DNA from: Candidatus Methylomirabilis oxygeniifera
GTDB taxonomy: Bacteria; Methylomirabilota; Methylomirabilia; Methylomirabilales; Methylomirabilaceae
Assembly (NCBI GenBank): GCA_000091165.1
Contig: FP565575.1
Span: forward strand, 240,001 to 272,000
Length of the DNA stretch: 32,000 nt
Direction: 5' to 3'
Positions 1-31,791 of this stretch are shown in pieces. The first letter of the stretch is position 1, and each line of letters starts with the position of its first letter. Under the pieces are notes generated by a model. It saw nothing but the letters and a program-made list of their open reading frames with translations. It was not told the DNA's origin and searched no databases. Both the position numbers and the translations under genes were made by a program.

Positions 1-1
1 G

Positions 2-1177
2 CGCGGAGGAGAGCGATGCCTGGAAGCGCTCTGCGAGCTCCTTCCGACAGCGGATATCTTTACCCTGCTGCACGTACAGGGAAGCGTATCGAAGACCATC
101 GAACAGCGGCGGATCCGGACGTCGGTCATTCAGACGTTGCCGTTTGCCGCGACCCACTATCGCTACTATCTGCCCCTCTTTCCGTGGGCCATCGAGCAAT
201 TCAAGCTCGATGGATACGATCTGATCCTCTCCAGCAGCCACTGTGTGGCGAAAGGGATCAAGCCTCCGCCACAAGCGCTGCACATCGCGTATCTGTACAC
301 CCCGATGCGATACATCTGGGATATGCAGGATGCCTACGTCGCCTCCGGTCGGATGGGTCCGGTGTCCAGACTGATGCTGCCCGCCATCGCCGGACGGTTA
401 CGGCGGTGGGATATCGCGGTCAACACCAGGGTTGATCACTTTATTGCTATCTCATATTATGTAGCGGATCGGGTCCGCCGCCATTACGGTCGGGAGGCTA
501 TCGTCATCTATCCTCCGGTCGAGACCGCCCGGTTTCATATCGCCGAGCGGACGGATGACTACTACCTGGCGGTCGGCGCCTTCGCCCCCTATAAGCGGAT
601 CGACCTGGCGATCGAGGCCTTTAACCGCTTGCGGCGACGCCTGGTGATCGTGGGTGAGGGACAGGAGGGGAGTCGCCTGCGGCACATGGCAGGTCCTACT
701 ATCGAGTTTCTCGGGTGGCGATCCGATCGCGAGGTCGCCGACCTTCTCAGCCGCTGCCGTGCGCTGGTCTTTCCGGGTGAAGAAGACTTCGGCATTCTCC
801 CTGTAGAAGCGATGGCCTGTGGACGGCCGGTCATTGCGTATGGGAGGGGCGGCGTGACGGAAACCGTGATTCCGCTGGAGCGTTCAGCGTTCAGCGTTCA
901 ACGTTCTGGGTTGCAGAACGCCTTCAGCCTTCAGCCTTCAGCCTTCAGCCTCGGACCTCAACCTCCCACCGGCGTGTTCTTCTATGAACAGACCGTCGAG
1001 GCGCTGGTTGATGCGATTGATCTTTTTGAGCGCTCATCCGATCGTTTCGATCCGGAGGCGCTTCGCGCGCACGCCCTCACGTTCGACCGTTCGATCTTCG
1101 AGAAGCGGATCGCAAGCTATATCGATGAACGTCTTGAGGAATGGACACGTGGGGGGCGCCGTCGTCGGCCATGCTGA
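2..1177 (+). CDS. Glycosyltransferase family 4 (GT-B, group 1), 5'-truncated by the window edge
   Basis: Frame 2 is open from nt 2 (RGGERCLEALCELLPTADIFTLLHVQGSVSKTIEQRRIRTSVIQTLPFAATHYRYYLPLFP...), so the track ORF 137..1177 is only the part after an internal TTG. The C-terminal half carries the GT4 block EDFGILPVEAMACGRPVIAYGRGGVTETV. Stop TGA 1175-1177. Confidence 0.85.
   Translation, partial: RGGERCLEALCELLPTADIFTLLHVQGSVSKTIEQRRIRTSVIQTLPFAATHYRYYLPLFPWAIEQFKLDGYDLILSSSHCVAKGIKPPPQALHIAYLYTPMRYIWDMQDAYVASGRMGPVSRLMLPAIAGRLRRWDIAVNTRVDHFIAISYYVADRVRRHYGREAIVIYPPVETARFHIAERTDDYYLAVGAFAPYKRIDLAIEAFNRLRRRLVIVGEGQEGSRLRHMAGPTIEFLGWRSDREVADLLSRCRALVFPGEEDFGILPVEAMACGRPVIAYGRGGVTETVIPLERSAFSVQRSGLQNAFSLQPSAFSLGPQPPTGVFFYEQTVEALVDAIDLFERSSDRFDPEALRAHALTFDRSIFEKRIASYIDERLEEWTRGGRRRRPC
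881..952 (+). repeat. Two heptamer tandem arrays inside the GT4 coding sequence
   Basis: CGTTCAG CGTTCAG CGTTCAA CGTTC (881-906) and CCTTCAG x4 + CCTC (921-952), with a 6-bp hairpin CGTTCT/AGAACG at 902-920. Translated in frame as SAFSVQRSGLQNAFSLQPSAFSL. Confidence 0.9.
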
Positions 1178-2574: not shown

Positions 2575-2647
2575 TAGTGTCTAGTGTCAAGTGTTGAGTT
2601 GAATACCCGCACCTCAAGACTCTGCACTCAACACTCAACACTGCAAA
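2575..2647. repeat. Opposed heptamer arrays forming a potential long hairpin (spacer element)
   Basis: TAGTGTC TAGTGTC AAGTGTT GAGTTGA (2575-2602) and CTCAAGA CTCTGCA CTCAACA CTCAACA CTGCAAA (2613-2647). TGTTGAG is the reverse complement of CTCAACA. Confidence 0.85.
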
Positions 2648-4673: not shown

Positions 4674-6437
<1,764 letters not shown>

Positions 6438-6445
6438 TTCGCCCA

Positions 6446-23608: not shown

Positions 23609-23680
23609 CTTCAGAGGAAGATGGCGATCCGTTCAGGCGCTACGATTTCGCGCCTCTCATCTCTAATGAATGTGCTATTC

Positions 23681-23695
23681 TGGGACATCTATTGC
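23681..23695 (+). promoter_or_regulatory. Candidate sigma-54 (-24/-12) promoter upstream of the GT operon
   Basis: TGGGACatctaTTGC versus consensus TGGCACG-N4-TTGC, with correct GG-N10-GC spacing. 56 nt upstream of ATG 23751. Confidence 0.4.
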
Positions 23696-23750
23696 GGCCG
23701 TATGCTCTCTCCTCGCGAGAGGGCGAGTAGGTACCATTGGTAGGCTCAAC

Positions 23751-25598
23751 ATGCGGATTCTACAAGTCGTCCACCTGTTTCCTCCTGAACAGTCTGCGGG
23801 GACAGAGCGCTATACGCAGGCCCTGGCGCGAGGGCTTGTAGCGAGGGGCCACGAGTGTCTCGTGCTTGCCGGATCGACCGAGAGCGCCTCAGAGCCTGGG
23901 GTACTGGTCAGAGGTCAAGATAGCCTCACTGTAGCTCGGCTCGTTGGGGTTCGGCAGGGATCCGGATTCCGGGTTGATAGCTACAATGCCGCGGCTGACG
24001 GCCTGATCAGGACCGTTCTTGACCTCTGGCGACCGGATCTGGTCCATCTCCAGCATTGGTACCGGCTGACGGGGAATCTGGTGGCGATATGCGCGCAGGC
24101 CGGGATCCCGGCCGTCGTCACCCTGCATGACCAGTGGCTTGCCTGCCCGAGGTTTCACCGGGTCCGGCCGGATGGCACATTCTGCGCGGAGCAGGTTGTT
24201 CCCTGTATTGCCTGCATCGATCGCGACCCGTGGCAGACCGATCAGGAGATCGACCGGGAACAGGACGTGCGTGCGCGCCTCCTTGCAGAGGAACTCAGAC
24301 TGGCCGGATGTCTCCTCGTCCCCTCCGAGGCCCAGCGGCGATTCCTGAGCCGGATCGCCGATATCCCGCCGGATCGCCTTCAGGTCGTGCCGTTGGGCTC
24401 ACCCGTCGAGTGGCCTCAAGGGGCTGTAGAGGAGCGGCGGCCGGATGGGGAGGGTCCCCTCAGAATCGGCTACTGGGGATATCTTGCGCCCCTGAAGGGG
24501 GTCCATACGCTCCTGGAAGCTGCTCGCGTGCTGGCTGGGGAATCCGACAGTCGCTTCGAGTGGCATCTCCTCGGGAGTTCCACCGACTCGATGTACGATG
24601 AAAAGCTCCGGACGTTGGCGGAAGGGCTTCCGGTCACCTTTCACGGCCCGTACCTCCACAGCGACGTCGCCGCTCTGGATTTCGATGTTGCCGTGTTTCC
24701 GTCGCTGTGCTATGAAACATACTCGTTTGTCCTCGATGAGGCCTTCCAGCTTGGACTGCCGGTGCTCGTACCGGATCGTGGGGCGCCGGCCGACCGTATC
24801 GGAGGGCGAGGTATGACCTTCCGGGCGGGCGATCCCCACGACCTGGCGCAGCGACTCCGATTCCTTCTTCAGGAGCCGCACCGGCTCGAGGAGATGCGCC
24901 ATAGCCTGCCCAGTGGAGGGGTTGTGACGATGGATGCGCACGCGCGAGACCTGGAGAAGATCTATCGCGAGACCTCAGTGTTGAAGCCTCCATCCTCCGA
25001 TGAGGCGGCCACATACCGGGTGCTGCTTACGCATCGGGAGCAGCAACTGGCCGATCGGGAGCAGCGGCTCTCCGAGCAGCAACGACACATCGAGGAGCTC
25101 ATGGCCGATCGGGAGCAGCGGCTCTCCGAGCAGCAACGACACATCGAGGAGCTCATGGCCGATCGGGAGCAGCGGCTCTCCGAGCAGCAACGACACATCG
25201 AGGAGCTCATGGCCGATCTCGCCGCACGGAATGAGAGTCTCCATGTCCAACATGAGGAGGCGGAGCGATTACAGGTCGGACTGGCCGATCTGGAGCGACT
25301 CCTCGCCGCCGCGCGCACGGATCTTGACGTGAGAGTCGCCGAGACCGAGGCAGCGCGGGCCGCGCTGGAGGCCAGGAACCGGGAGGCGGCCGAACTGCAC
25401 GCGCAGACAGTGGCGCAAGACGGGCTCCTCCTCGAACTGCAGGCGAGCTTGGCAGCCCGAACGCAAGAGGCTGACGGTCTGCGGCGTGAGGCGGAAGAGT
25501 CCGATCGCCTGCTTCTGGAGGCACGGCAGTCGATACTGGGATCGCTGGATGCCAAGCTTAAGGGTGTGGTGAGGCGGATCGGCGGGAAGGACCGGTAA
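23751..25598 (+). CDS. Glycosyltransferase family 4 with a C-terminal coiled-coil tail of about 190 aa
   Basis: MRILQVVHLFPPEQSAGTERY N-terminus typical of GT4. C-domain FPSLCYETYSFVLDEAFQLGLPVLVPDRGA. The tail is rich in E/R/L/A/Q and contains ADREQRLSEQQRHIEELM x3. Confidence 0.85.
   Translation: MRILQVVHLFPPEQSAGTERYTQALARGLVARGHECLVLAGSTESASEPGVLVRGQDSLTVARLVGVRQGSGFRVDSYNAAADGLIRTVLDLWRPDLVHLQHWYRLTGNLVAICAQAGIPAVVTLHDQWLACPRFHRVRPDGTFCAEQVVPCIACIDRDPWQTDQEIDREQDVRARLLAEELRLAGCLLVPSEAQRRFLSRIADIPPDRLQVVPLGSPVEWPQGAVEERRPDGEGPLRIGYWGYLAPLKGVHTLLEAARVLAGESDSRFEWHLLGSSTDSMYDEKLRTLAEGLPVTFHGPYLHSDVAALDFDVAVFPSLCYETYSFVLDEAFQLGLPVLVPDRGAPADRIGGRGMTFRAGDPHDLAQRLRFLLQEPHRLEEMRHSLPSGGVVTMDAHARDLEKIYRETSVLKPPSSDEAATYRVLLTHREQQLADREQRLSEQQRHIEELMADREQRLSEQQRHIEELMADREQRLSEQQRHIEELMADLAARNESLHVQHEEAERLQVGLADLERLLAAARTDLDVRVAETEAARAALEARNREAAELHAQTVAQDGLLLELQASLAARTQEADGLRREAEESDRLLLEARQSILGSLDAKLKGVVRRIGGKDR
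25050..25218 (+). repeat. Three perfect in-frame 54-bp tandem repeats (+7 nt of a fourth)
   Basis: GCCGATCGGGAGCAGCGGCTCTCCGAGCAGCAACGACACATCGAGGAGCTCATG at 25050-25103, 25104-25157 and 25158-25211, then GCCGATC. Confidence 0.95.
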
Positions 25599-30816: not shown

Positions 30817-30891
30817 GTAGGGCACTGAGACGGTATGTGCATTGGCGATGCTGCATGAGAGGCTATGGCTGCCGGGGAGAGGAGGACGAGT

Positions 30892-31791
30892 ATGATCCGT
30901 TATAAGGGCGCGAAACGGTGGTTCCTACAAGGGTGCCTTACAGCGTCTTTGCTCCTCACGGTCATGGTGCGACCGGGTACGGCGGTGATGCAGTCGGATA
31001 TCCACATCTCGGACAATGGAACCGTGTATTGGGCGCAGCGCAACGACGGTTCTTCCGGGAAGGTGCGGGTGACCACCGTCGGTCTTGGGGCCAGCACCGG
31101 CGCGATCAATACGAGCGCAGCGCTGGCGCAGGATGGGACGCTGACCGCCAGCGGAACGGTGAATCCGTTGTTTGCGCTTGGCAATGTGCGGCGGACCGGA
31201 ATCTTTGCGTGCACCATTCCGGGAACGTTCGATCCGTCCGCTAATTCAGGGAATGGATCGTGGAATGTGGGTGGATCTGTGATCAACGGCTTTAGTGATG
31301 TGCCAAACCTGACCGATCTCTCCAACAACTTGGGTGGGGTTCCATCCGCTCAAACCGGAGTGAATCAGTTCGGATTCAACACTGCCACCCCAACGACCTC
31401 TATCGCAAAGGGTGCCCCAACCCCTTCTGACGGGTTTACGCTGAACACCGGTGAATGCGTGATCTACGTCCTCAATAGTGCATCTTTGCTCACCCCGGGG
31501 ACCACGCTGACCGGTGCAGGCGCGTCTGCCGGATTCATGGATAACTTCATTACCGGGACCGTGCAGTTGACGACCGGGAAGACGGATACTGTGGCGAAGT
31601 TCCTTCCCACCACCACCACGACGACGACTACGACGACGACGACTACGACGACGACCACCACGACCACCACGACGACGACAATCCCCCCGCCGACGATTCC
31701 AACGACTGGAGAGTGGGGGATGATGATTTTCGGGGCGGCGCTGCTCGGATTTATGGCCTGGATGACCCAAGCCAGGCGGTCGATTAAGTAG
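30892..31791 (+). CDS. Secreted protein with a 24-Thr linker and an IPTL-CTERM (PEP-CTERM-like) sorting signal
   Basis: N-terminal signal-like MIRYKGAKRWFLQGCLTASLLLTVMVRPGTAVM. T24 at 31609-31680. C-terminus IPTTGEWGMMIFGAALLGFMAWMTQARRSIK (IPTx-EWG motif + TM + basic tail). ATG 30892 follows GAGAGGAGGA. ATG 30865 is an alternative. Confidence 0.8.
   Translation: MIRYKGAKRWFLQGCLTASLLLTVMVRPGTAVMQSDIHISDNGTVYWAQRNDGSSGKVRVTTVGLGASTGAINTSAALAQDGTLTASGTVNPLFALGNVRRTGIFACTIPGTFDPSANSGNGSWNVGGSVINGFSDVPNLTDLSNNLGGVPSAQTGVNQFGFNTATPTTSIAKGAPTPSDGFTLNTGECVIYVLNSASLLTPGTTLTGAGASAGFMDNFITGTVQLTTGKTDTVAKFLPTTTTTTTTTTTTTTTTTTTTTTTTIPPPTIPTTGEWGMMIFGAALLGFMAWMTQARRSIK

What the first reader, a model, noticed from the sequence alone, without database searches (positions are those of the whole stretch)
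881..952. Spacer-type heptamer arrays sitting in frame inside a glycosyltransferase gene
CGTTCAG x3.7 (881-906) and CCTTCAG x4.5 (921-952) flank a small hairpin at 902-920. They are translated as SAFSVQRSGLQNAFSLQPSAFSL, between the conserved GRGGVTETVI and TGVFFYEQT blocks, where GT4 enzymes normally have only a few residues. The TCAGC-type unit is the same kind that fills the non-coding spacer at 4674-4708. Gain or loss of one 7-nt unit shifts the frame, and three units add or remove 7 aa. This is either a slipped-strand on/off switch for an envelope GT or a tolerated invasion of a surface loop by a repeat.
Basis: partly seen in the sequence, partly recalled or inferred. Interest (0 to 1): 0.62.

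Follow-up and report, generated by a model that had tools for sequence, protein, structure and literature searches.

The report
Translated heptamer-repeat cassette in glycosyltransferase loop
A 72-base stretch built from 7-base repeats is read in frame as a floppy extra loop of an envelope sugar-transferase in Methylomirabilis oxyfera. It is one resident copy of a genome-wide repeat family that also sits inside housekeeping genes, and it looks like tolerated, fast-changing repeat DNA, not an on/off switch.

Summary
CGTTCAG x3.7 (881-906), a 7-bp mini-hairpin (902-920) and CCTTCAG x4.5 (921-952) lie in frame in a GT4 gene, between GGVTETV and TGVFF.

- **Size of the insert.** A solved relative has 4 residues at this spot. 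Distant members of the same GT subfamily have about 9. M. oxyfera has 33.
- **Structure.** AlphaFold models the insert as a low-confidence coil.
- **Genome context.** The genome holds 317 period-7 arrays. Many come as paired, inverted arrays that form hairpins. In-frame copies also sit in carA, hisF, queA, tsaD and holB.
- **Orthologues.** All 17 readable genome orthologues (15 same-genus, 2 same-order) and about 100 metagenome proteins keep the frame. Segment lengths form a 7-aa (21-nt) ladder.
- **Unit turnover.** The heptamer unit differs between species and does not follow the gene tree. It always belongs to a family that is abundant in that genome.
- **Level of conservation.** Within one type, the array is conserved at DNA level, not codon level. 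One strain changed all four units alike.

I read it as a tolerated repeat cassette in a permissive loop, evolving in concert with the genome's repeat pool.

This scan has found the same class before, in this genome and in other phyla.

The parts
1..1177 (+). 3' 1177 nt of a 409-aa GT4 (GT-B fold) glycosyltransferase gene. The true start lies 52 nt upstream of the window.
   Evidence: ORF. Pfam PF00534 at 4e-23, plus PF13439. AF2 model pTM 0.82, with Foldseek top hits all GT4 enzymes. The EX7E motif EDFGILPVE is present in the sequence.
878..961 (+). Extra loop segment ERSAFSVQRSGLQNAFSLQPSAFSLGPQ (28 aa), measured against the roughly 9-aa loop of distant subfamily members.
   Evidence: AF2 pLDDT below 50 for residues 315-335.
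881..906 (+). Left heptamer array, CGTTCAG x3.7.
   Evidence: The unit family (canonical AACGCTG) forms 7 arrays in the genome.
902..920 (+). Mini-hairpin CGTTCTG-GGTTG-CAGAACG. It is probably the last remnant of an inverted-arm core.
   Evidence: Not present in orthologues L003-L007.
921..952 (+). Right heptamer array, CCTTCAG x4.5, in the same (direct) orientation as the left array.
   Evidence: The unit family (canonical AAGGCTG) forms 25 arrays in the genome. Its reverse complement contains TGA, so only this orientation can be translated.
953..967 (+). Decayed tail, CGGACCT CAACCTC CC. It is a remnant of the CCTCGAA/CCTTGAA-type right arm seen in orthologues.
   Evidence: Alignment of orthologous inserts.
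4674..4765 (.). Intergenic copy of the same class: inverted TCAGC-type heptamer arrays (ATCAGCT.. / ..GCTGACG) around a spacer.
2575..2647 (.). Intergenic heptamer-array hairpin (TAGTGTC-type / CTCAACA-type).
6380..6438 (.). Intergenic heptamer-array hairpin (CTAGGGT / CCCTAAA).

Best explanation
The 72-nt block is a resident, translated copy of a dispersed heptamer-array repeat class. The typical form is two arrays of about 4 units in inverted orientation around a short spacer.

**Shown**
- The block occupies a permissive, disordered surface loop of the C-terminal Rossmann domain of a GT4 enzyme, in an envelope-polysaccharide gene cluster.
- The enzyme stays under purifying selection and is read straight through the block.
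- Only length changes that keep the frame survive. In practice these are steps of three units (21 nt, 7 aa).
- Only heptamers without a stop codon in any phase can sit on the sense strand.

**Inferred**
- The stop rule explains why both arms are TCAGC-type units in direct orientation here, so the long hairpin is lost in M. oxyfera.
- The array content is not inherited like the rest of the gene. It is homogenised within the array by slippage or conversion.
- It is repeatedly replaced by heptamer families that are abundant elsewhere in the same genome, through ectopic conversion, re-insertion or template switching.
- The block is DNA-level baggage with no demonstrated benefit to the enzyme, and it is not a programmed on/off switch.
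For: **Loop size.** 2f9f has NEKT (4 aa) at this spot. Subfamily members at 50-57% identity mostly have 9-14 aa. M. oxyfera has 33 aa.

**Structure.** The AF2 model has mean pLDDT 80.8, but residues 315-335 fall below 50 and form coil between H302-305 and E341-344.

**Genome-wide class.** There are 317 period-7 TRF arrays, against 69 for period 6 and 96 for period 8. 27 of the clusters hold two arrays. 31 clusters lie mid-gene in crude ORF models. Pfam confirms carA, hisF, queA, tsaD and holB, with domains on both sides of or spanning the insert.

**Frame kept.** All 17 readable genome orthologues (15 same-genus, 2 same-order) have no stops. Among 101 proteins, the segment is 33 aa in 46, 26 aa in 11 and 25 aa in 8, and 61 of 101 fall in one residue class mod 7.

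**Host gene is functional.** Amino-acid divergence outside the insert is 0.05-0.23, against 0.16-0.57 at 4-fold sites.

**Unit turnover does not follow the tree.** L001 (CGTTCAN + CCTTCAG) is sister (100/99 support) to L002 (AGTTTCG + AACCCGA). L002's flanks stay L001-like up to the insert.

**The unit always comes from an abundant family.**
- AGTTTCG x3 gives 12-81 hits in the five carrier genomes, against a median of 3 in the others.
- CCTTCAG x3 gives 9-20 hits in carriers, against a median of 2.5.
- CCCCTCA x3 gives 15 hits in G009, against 2 or fewer in the other genus genomes.
- GGAGTGC x3 gives 14 and 7 hits in the two carriers, against 5 or fewer elsewhere.

**DNA-level conservation.** The CCTTCAG array has 3 of 28 variable columns, against 8 of 12 in the spacer. 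Variable columns split 9/9/11 over the three codon positions. L102/L103 carry CGATCAG in all four left units.

**Stop filter.** CCTTCAG, CGTTCAG and CGTTCAA are stop-free only in the sense orientation. 35 of 39 mid-gene arrays are sense stop-free.
Against: - No reads could be examined, so low-frequency +/-7 variants are not excluded.
- Translation of the insert is inferred from the conserved frame, not from peptides.
- The link between the GT unit and genome-wide abundance rests on related, non-independent genomes. It is necessary but not sufficient, because some non-carriers (G018, G011) also have many copies.
- The strongly preferred length of 33 aa and the low variability of the CCTTCAG array could instead mean selection on the loop or on a nucleic-acid motif.
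- The replacement mechanism is unknown.
Confidence: 0.75

Rival explanations
1. Phase-variable contingency locus. Gain or loss of one 7-nt unit by slipped-strand mispairing switches the glycosyltransferase off and on, varying the envelope polysaccharide.
For: Perfect tandem heptamers lie in a coding region of an envelope GT, and a +/-7 change would truncate the last ~70 aa. Two draft genomes break their contigs at this repeat (G005, G015), which could reflect heterogeneity. Heptanucleotide switches are known, such as hmw1A (PMC8262952).
Against: All 17 readable genome orthologues (15 same-genus, 2 same-order) and about 100 metagenome proteins are in frame, and no truncated allele sits on a long contig. 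The arrays have 3.7 and 4.5 units, against 13-24 units in hmw1A. The same class sits in frame in carA, hisF, tsaD and holB, which are unlikely to tolerate switching off. Contig breaks are expected at any dispersed repeat.
Confidence: 0.07
2. The loop is a selected protein feature. It would be a flexible linker or interaction arm of preferred length (~33 aa) whose exact sequence is free, with heptamer DNA merely the raw material.
For: The loop is present in nearly all genus members, and 33 aa is the mode in 46 of 101 proteins despite complete sequence turnover. Some distant relatives carry a non-repetitive G/A/P-rich segment of 27-28 aa at the same spot.
Against: G009 has only 12 aa, and other proteins range from 12 to 67 aa. 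Variable columns are spread evenly over codon positions, 9/9/11. Most distant subfamily members manage with 9-14 aa. The constant length equals the standard size of the element (two arrays of ~30 nt plus a spacer) seen in intergenic copies.
Confidence: 0.1
3. A nucleic-acid-level element. The arrays or hairpin would act in DNA or RNA, as a protein-binding site, a pause or processing site, or an antisense structure, and be kept for that reason inside the gene.
For: The CCTTCAG array is far less variable (3 of 28 columns) than 4-fold sites (0.25-0.41). Orthologues L006, L012, L013, L022 and L023 fold as strong hairpins, with z down to -10 on the antisense strand. Strand preference is non-random: between co-directional genes the sense strand is more stable in 68 clusters against 35, while inside ORFs the antisense strand is more stable in 38 against 16.
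Against: M. oxyfera's own copy does not fold better than shuffles. Units differ completely between sister species. The strand bias inside genes is explained by the stop-codon filter, because G/T-rich strands carry TGA/TAG. Low variability can equally come from homogenisation.
Confidence: 0.08

Closest known systems
Rickettsia palindromic elements (RPE), as summarised in PMC10969869
   Same: A dispersed small repeat with hairpin potential, inserted in frame into unrelated metabolic and housekeeping genes. It is translated and tolerated at positions compatible with the protein fold.
   Different: RPEs are ~150-bp families with a conserved consensus and a conserved encoded peptide. Here the element is ~70 nt, built from tandem heptamers with no fixed consensus. 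Its unit is replaced between sister species, and the host is a free-living NC10 bacterium.
Cyanobacterial STRR heptanucleotide repeats and G-rich heptamer repeats of Nostoc/Xanthomonas (PMC4692102)
   Same: Tandem 7-nt units dispersed over the genome, mostly intergenic, with a clear preference for about four units. Copy numbers here have median 3.7 and 75th percentile 4.4.
   Different: The taxon and the units differ. Many units here (CCTTCAG, CGTTCAG, AGTTTCG) have no G-tracts, so a G-quadruplex cannot explain the four-unit preference. The paired inverted-array architecture and the in-frame copies in housekeeping genes are not part of those descriptions as far as I could read.
Heptanucleotide contingency loci: hmw1A promoter (ATCTTTC)n of Haemophilus influenzae (PMC8262952), and neuO (AAGACTC)n of E. 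coli K1
   Same: A 7-nt tandem unit. In neuO the repeat is inside the coding region, and only unit numbers divisible by three give full-length protein.
   Different: Those tracts are long (13-24 units in hmw1A) and vary between isolates, including out-of-frame states. Here the arrays have ~4 units and no out-of-frame allele was seen.
REPIN/RAYT systems (PMC3116915, listed but not read)
   Same: Two inverted arms plus a spacer forming a ~70-100-nt hairpin, dispersed in many copies.
   Different: REPINs have a fixed REP sequence and a cognate RAYT gene flanked by them. Here none of the three Y1_Tnp genes has heptamer arrays within 1.5 kb.

Membership tests
GT4 glycosyltransferase (host gene) | Pfam Glycos_transf_1 / Glyco_transf_4 match above the gathering score | tested here: met
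   PF00534 scores 82.3 bits (cut-off 26.4) and PF13439 scores 30.9 (cut-off 28.5).
GT4 glycosyltransferase (host gene) | GT-B two-Rossmann fold and EX7E motif | tested here: met
   AF2 pTM 0.82. Foldseek top hits are GT4 enzymes (5zer, MshA 3c48, BshA, PimA) at E down to 9e-18. EDFGILPVE is present in the sequence.
Phase-variable SSR contingency locus | A repeat tract positioned so that unit changes alter expression | tested here: met
   The arrays lie inside the ORF, and a +/-7 change shifts the frame.
Phase-variable SSR contingency locus | A long, hypermutable tract, typically well above 8 units for 7-nt repeats | tested here: not met
   3.7 and 4.5 units, against 13-24 in hmw1A.
Phase-variable SSR contingency locus | Out-of-frame (OFF) alleles among strains or reads | tested here: not met
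   None among 17 genome orthologues (15 same-genus, 2 same-order) or about 100 proteins.
RPE-like in-frame palindromic element | A dispersed multi-copy family in the genome | tested here: met
   317 period-7 arrays, and 25 arrays of the CCTTCAG family.
RPE-like in-frame palindromic element | In-frame insertion in conserved genes at tolerated positions | tested here: met
   GT4, carA, hisF, queA, tsaD and holB. The hisF site is empty in 7 relatives.
RPE-like in-frame palindromic element | Palindromic (hairpin) structure of the copy | tested here: inconclusive
   Strong in orthologues L006, L012, L013, L022 and L023. Not significant in the M. oxyfera copy.
RPE-like in-frame palindromic element | A conserved element consensus and encoded peptide | tested here: not met
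   Units differ between sister species, and no full-length second copy of the insert exists in G000.
Cyanobacterial STRR | Tandem heptanucleotide arrays, dispersed and mainly intergenic | tested here: met
   Of 217 arrays with 3 or more units, 117 are intergenic, 28 partial and 72 inside crude ORF models, against 84% coding density.
Cyanobacterial STRR | Heterocystous cyanobacterial host and the STRR1-3 unit sequences | tested here: not met
   Source names on homologues say Candidatus Methylomirabilis / NC10, and the units are different.
REPIN/RAYT | A cognate Y1 transposase (RAYT) gene flanked by the repeat | tested here: not met
   Three PF01797 genes were found, and none has heptamer arrays of 3 or more units within 1.5 kb.

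The most novel reading that the evidence does not exclude
Heptamer arrays in Methylomirabilis may be products of an active, family-specific copying process. This would be a self-propagating microsatellite or hairpin element with an unidentified enzyme or template-switch mechanism. It would repeatedly overwrite fixed 'landing pads', including loops of essential genes, with whichever heptamer family is currently spreading in that genome. That would explain three observations together: sister species carry unrelated units at the same codon positions, the array length stays at about 4 units, and several sites in one genome share a family.
Probability: 0.3. Interest if true: 0.8.

Novelty: new variant of a known kind. 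Interest (0 to 1): 0.52.

Why it matters
It is a clear natural case of non-coding-type repeat DNA being carried and translated inside conserved enzymes, and it comes with a dense comparative series.
- One site can be followed across a genus.
- The repeat unit turns over while length and frame are held.
- A simple stop-codon rule decides which repeats, and which orientation, can live in genes.

The series gives a testable handle on how heptamer microsatellites spread and homogenise in bacteria. That question has stayed open since STRR repeats were described. The case also warns annotators and structure modellers that low-complexity loops in NC10 proteins may be repeat cassettes. For the biology of this GT itself, the result is ordinary: there is no evidence of regulation.

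Tried and rejected
- **Long hairpin in the M. oxyfera copy.** Not better than shuffles on either strand. Only the 7-bp mini-stem exists.
- **Homologous recombination importing the whole region from a type-A species into L002.** The flanks of L002 stay closest to L001 up to the insert, so any exchange is confined to about 100 nt.
- **REPIN/RAYT mobilisation.** Three Y1_Tnp genes exist, but none is associated with heptamer arrays.
- **A second full-length copy of the insert in the genome, as a donor.** Only the CCTTCAG arm recurs. The best two-arm hit is 69% identical over 70 nt.
- **Literature on heptamer repeats in Methylomirabilis.** No paper in the held library.
- **G-quadruplex as the reason for about four units** (PMC4692102). 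Not applicable to CCTTCAG or CGTTCAG, which lack G-tracts.
- **NCBIfam naming of the GT.** Only sub-threshold hits, so the acceptor and donor remain unknown.

Full report
**Observation.** Window 881-906 reads CGTTCAG CGTTCAG CGTTCAA CGTTC. Positions 902-920 are CGTTCTG-GGTTG-CAGAACG, a 7-bp stem with a 5-nt loop. Positions 921-952 are CCTTCAG x4.5. TRF finds the right array at 100% identity and can read the whole of 879-949 as a degenerate 9.4-unit period-7 array. A 3-unit CCTTCAG pattern never occurs in 100 shuffles of the window.

The block lies in frame in a 409-aa ORF that starts 52 nt before the window. This ORF is a GT4 glycosyltransferase. PF00534 matches at 4e-23, and the match ends at the insert. 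AF2 gives pTM 0.82, and Foldseek hits are GT4 enzymes.

Downstream lie a WcaJ-type undecaprenyl-phosphate glucose phosphotransferase and an RfaE-type heptose kinase, both above their NCBIfam cut-offs, with an NAD-dependent sugar epimerase/dehydratase family gene between them (Pfam Epimerase, 217 bits; its best NCBIfam hit, GalE, is below the cut-off). Source names on homologues identify the organism as Candidatus Methylomirabilis oxyfera / NC10. The genome is a single 2,752,854-bp contig.

**How large is the insertion?** In the closest solved relative (2f9f, WbaZ-1), GGFKETVI is followed by NEKT and then GYL. In 50-57%-identical members of the same subfamily from metagenomes, the segment between ETV and TG is mostly 9-14 aa, for example VPPGGAEPP. 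In M. oxyfera it is 33 aa, a net gain of about 24 aa or 72 nt, which is the size of the repeat block. AlphaFold2 with a 13-sequence alignment models the protein well (mean pLDDT 80.8). Residues 315-335 fall below pLDDT 50 and form coil between helix 302-305 and strand 341-344. That the loop points away from the catalytic cleft is inferred from GT-B topology, not measured.

**The block belongs to a genome-wide class.** TRF on the whole genome gives 317 period-7 arrays, against 69 for period 6 and 96 for period 8. Copy numbers cluster around four, with median 3.7 and 75th percentile 4.4. CCTTCAG is the second most common unit family (25 arrays), and CGTTCAG has 7.

Many arrays come in pairs about 10-25 nt apart, with the right array roughly the reverse complement of the left. 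The result is a ~70-90-nt hairpin. The window's own spacers at 2575-2647, 4674-4765 and 6380-6438 are examples.

Arrays are depleted in genes but far from absent. Of the 217 arrays with 3 or more units, 72 lie inside crude ORF models that cover 84% of the genome. 31 array clusters lie well inside ORFs. Pfam confirms that five of these hosts are carA, hisF, queA, tsaD and holB, with the domain match spanning or flanking the insert. Histidine kinases and chemoreceptor paralogues carry them too.

**Orthologues.** In 17 relatives' genomes (15 same-genus, 2 same-order) the GT is intact, with no stop or frameshift. Two further drafts break contigs at the repeat. Nearly all carry two heptamer arrays at exactly this site, but the units differ:
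- AGTTTCG...CGAAACC in L002, L006, L011, L012 and L020.
- CGTTCAN...CCTTCAG in L001, L003, L004, L005 and L007.
- CGTTCAN...CCTCGAA in L010.
- GGAGTGC...GCACCTC in L013, with a close variant in G008.
- A single (CCCCTCA)x4 in G009.
- GTTCCGG...AACCCGA in a different family of the order (L016).

A distant relative (L029, 54% identity) has its own (CACCAGT)x4 in the same loop. L022 has a perfect 27-nt palindrome nested in the spacer.

Among 101 Methylomirabilis-like proteins, the segment is 33 aa in 46, 26 aa in 11 and 25 aa in 8. 61 of 101 share one residue class mod 7.

**Not tree-like, and tied to the genome's repeat pool.** A maximum-likelihood tree of the GT with the insert removed puts M. 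oxyfera (CGTTCAN + CCTTCAG) as sister, with 100/99 support, to G010 (AGTTTCG + AACCCGA). It puts L010 as sister to L022, which has different arms. G010's coding flanks remain closest to M. oxyfera right up to the insert. Divergence is 0.155 at 4-fold sites but 0.56 in the insert.

Counts of 3-unit patterns (up to 2 mismatches) in the 19 genus genomes show that the unit in the GT always belongs to a family abundant in that genome:

| Pattern | Carrier genomes | Other genus genomes |
|---|---|---|
| AGTTTCG x3 | 12-81 hits (five carriers) | median 3 |
| CCTTCAG x3 | 9-20 hits (five carriers) | median 2.5 |
| CCCCTCA x3 | 15 hits (G009) | 2 or fewer |
| GGAGTGC x3 | 14 and 7 hits (G008, G016) | 5 or fewer |

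The relation is necessary, not sufficient, because G018 and G011 have many copies of both main families. The genomes are also related, so this is suggestive, not a statistical proof.

A second site behaves the same way. The hisF loop is empty (8-11 aa) in seven relatives and filled with different arrays in the others. G010, G011, G002 and G008 carry the same family at hisF as at the GT, whereas M. oxyfera carries non-type-A units at both.

**DNA-level, not protein-level, maintenance.** Among the five CGTTCAN/CCTTCAG carriers, the CCTTCAG array has 3 of 28 variable columns. The spacer has 8 of 12 and the left array 9 of 28, while 4-fold sites differ by 0.25-0.41. Variable columns fall 9/9/11 on the three codon positions. 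In strains L102/L103, all four left units read CGATCAG instead of CGTTCAG. One change has been propagated through the array, which is the signature of concerted evolution. The closest strain (3.4% divergence upstream) differs at 13% in the insert.

**Why direct arms here, and why the antisense strand folds better.** A tandem heptamer is read in all three phases, so it can be translated only if none of its seven cyclic triplets is a stop. CCTTCAG, CGTTCAG and CGTTCAA pass on the sense strand, but their complements contain TGA. A true inverted partner arm is therefore impossible inside this gene, which fits the direct orientation and the loss of the long hairpin.

Genome-wide, 92% of intergenic array units carry a stop on at least one strand, against 34% of random heptamers. 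35 of 39 mid-gene arrays are sense stop-free. Because the G/T-rich strand carries both the stops and the G.U pairs, this filter also explains the strand bias. Inside ORFs the antisense strand folds better in 38 clusters against 16. Between co-directional genes the sense strand does, in 68 against 35. Orthologues with stop-free units on both strands keep strong hairpins.

**Verdict on mechanism.** The switch hypothesis lacks support. There are no OFF alleles, the arrays have only about 4 units against 13-24 in hmw1A (PMC8262952), and the same class sits in essential genes.

The best reading is a tolerated repeat cassette in a permissive loop, filtered by frame and stop codons and evolving in concert with the genome's heptamer pool. 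How arrays are replaced is unknown. Ectopic conversion, re-insertion into existing arrays, and quasipalindrome template switching are the candidates. A RAYT-type transposase link was tested and not found.

**Comparison with known systems.** It works most like Rickettsia palindromic elements, which are in-frame, translated, dispersed hairpin repeats (PMC10969869). It lacks their fixed consensus. Its building blocks resemble cyanobacterial STRR and other bacterial heptamer repeats, including the four-unit preference reported for Xanthomonas and Nostoc (PMC4692102). It is not a member of any of these families by their defining features. No paper on such repeats in Methylomirabilis was found in the held library.

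Earlier agents of this scan described the same class in this genome (pseudopilin leaders, B12 riboswitches) and in other phyla. This report adds five things:
- the GT site series across the genus;
- the incongruence between unit type and gene tree;
- the link between the unit at the site and its abundance in the genome;
- the codon-position test;
- the stop-codon rule.

Noticed in passing
window 23670-25598 (+), repeat at 25048-25218: A 642-aa ORF with an N-terminal glycosyltransferase-like part carries three perfect 54-nt (18-aa) tandem repeats, ADREQRLSEQQRHIEELM, in a coiled-coil-like tail. TRF gives 3.2 copies at 100% identity. Such perfect copies suggest very recent duplication or ongoing homogenisation.
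   Followed up: partly
window 30865-31791 (+), repeat at 31618-31679: A secreted-looking 308-aa protein has an (ACG)x20.7 tract encoding a run of about 24 threonines. The run sits just before a C-terminal IPTTGEWGMMIFGAALLGF...RR tail that looks like an IPTL/PEP-CTERM-type sorting signal. The family assignment is from memory and was not tested.
   Followed up: no
genome 1851586-1852797 (carA), 1920510-1921349 (hisF), 2063720-2064859 (queA), 2173899-2174987 (tsaD), 976872-977936 (holB): Housekeeping genes of the same genome carry in-frame paired heptamer arrays (about 20-28 aa). Pfam domains flank or span the insert.
   Followed up: yes
genome 419441, 952434, 2227619, 2613390: Four different histidine kinases carry a heptamer array at the same structural spot, just before the ..E(I/V)AVADTG motif of the ATPase domain. 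This means either a hot spot or an insertion older than the paralogues.
   Followed up: no
L022 (metagenome Ga0209341_10021332), GT insert: A perfect 27-nt palindrome, TAGGGGCGACCC-GGC-GGGTCGCCCCTA, is nested in the spacer between the two heptamer arms. It is translated as SRGDPAGRPY and recurs in proteins P0059 and P0067. This is a second, smaller element class nesting inside the first.
   Followed up: partly
genome-wide: Units of intergenic heptamer arrays are strongly enriched for stop triplets. 108 of 117 have a stop on at least one strand, against 34% of random genomic heptamers.
   Followed up: partly
window 953-1177 vs strain L101: The 210 nt downstream of the insert differ by 13% between M. 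oxyfera and its closest strain, against 3.4% upstream. This may be a recombination boundary at the repeat.
   Followed up: no
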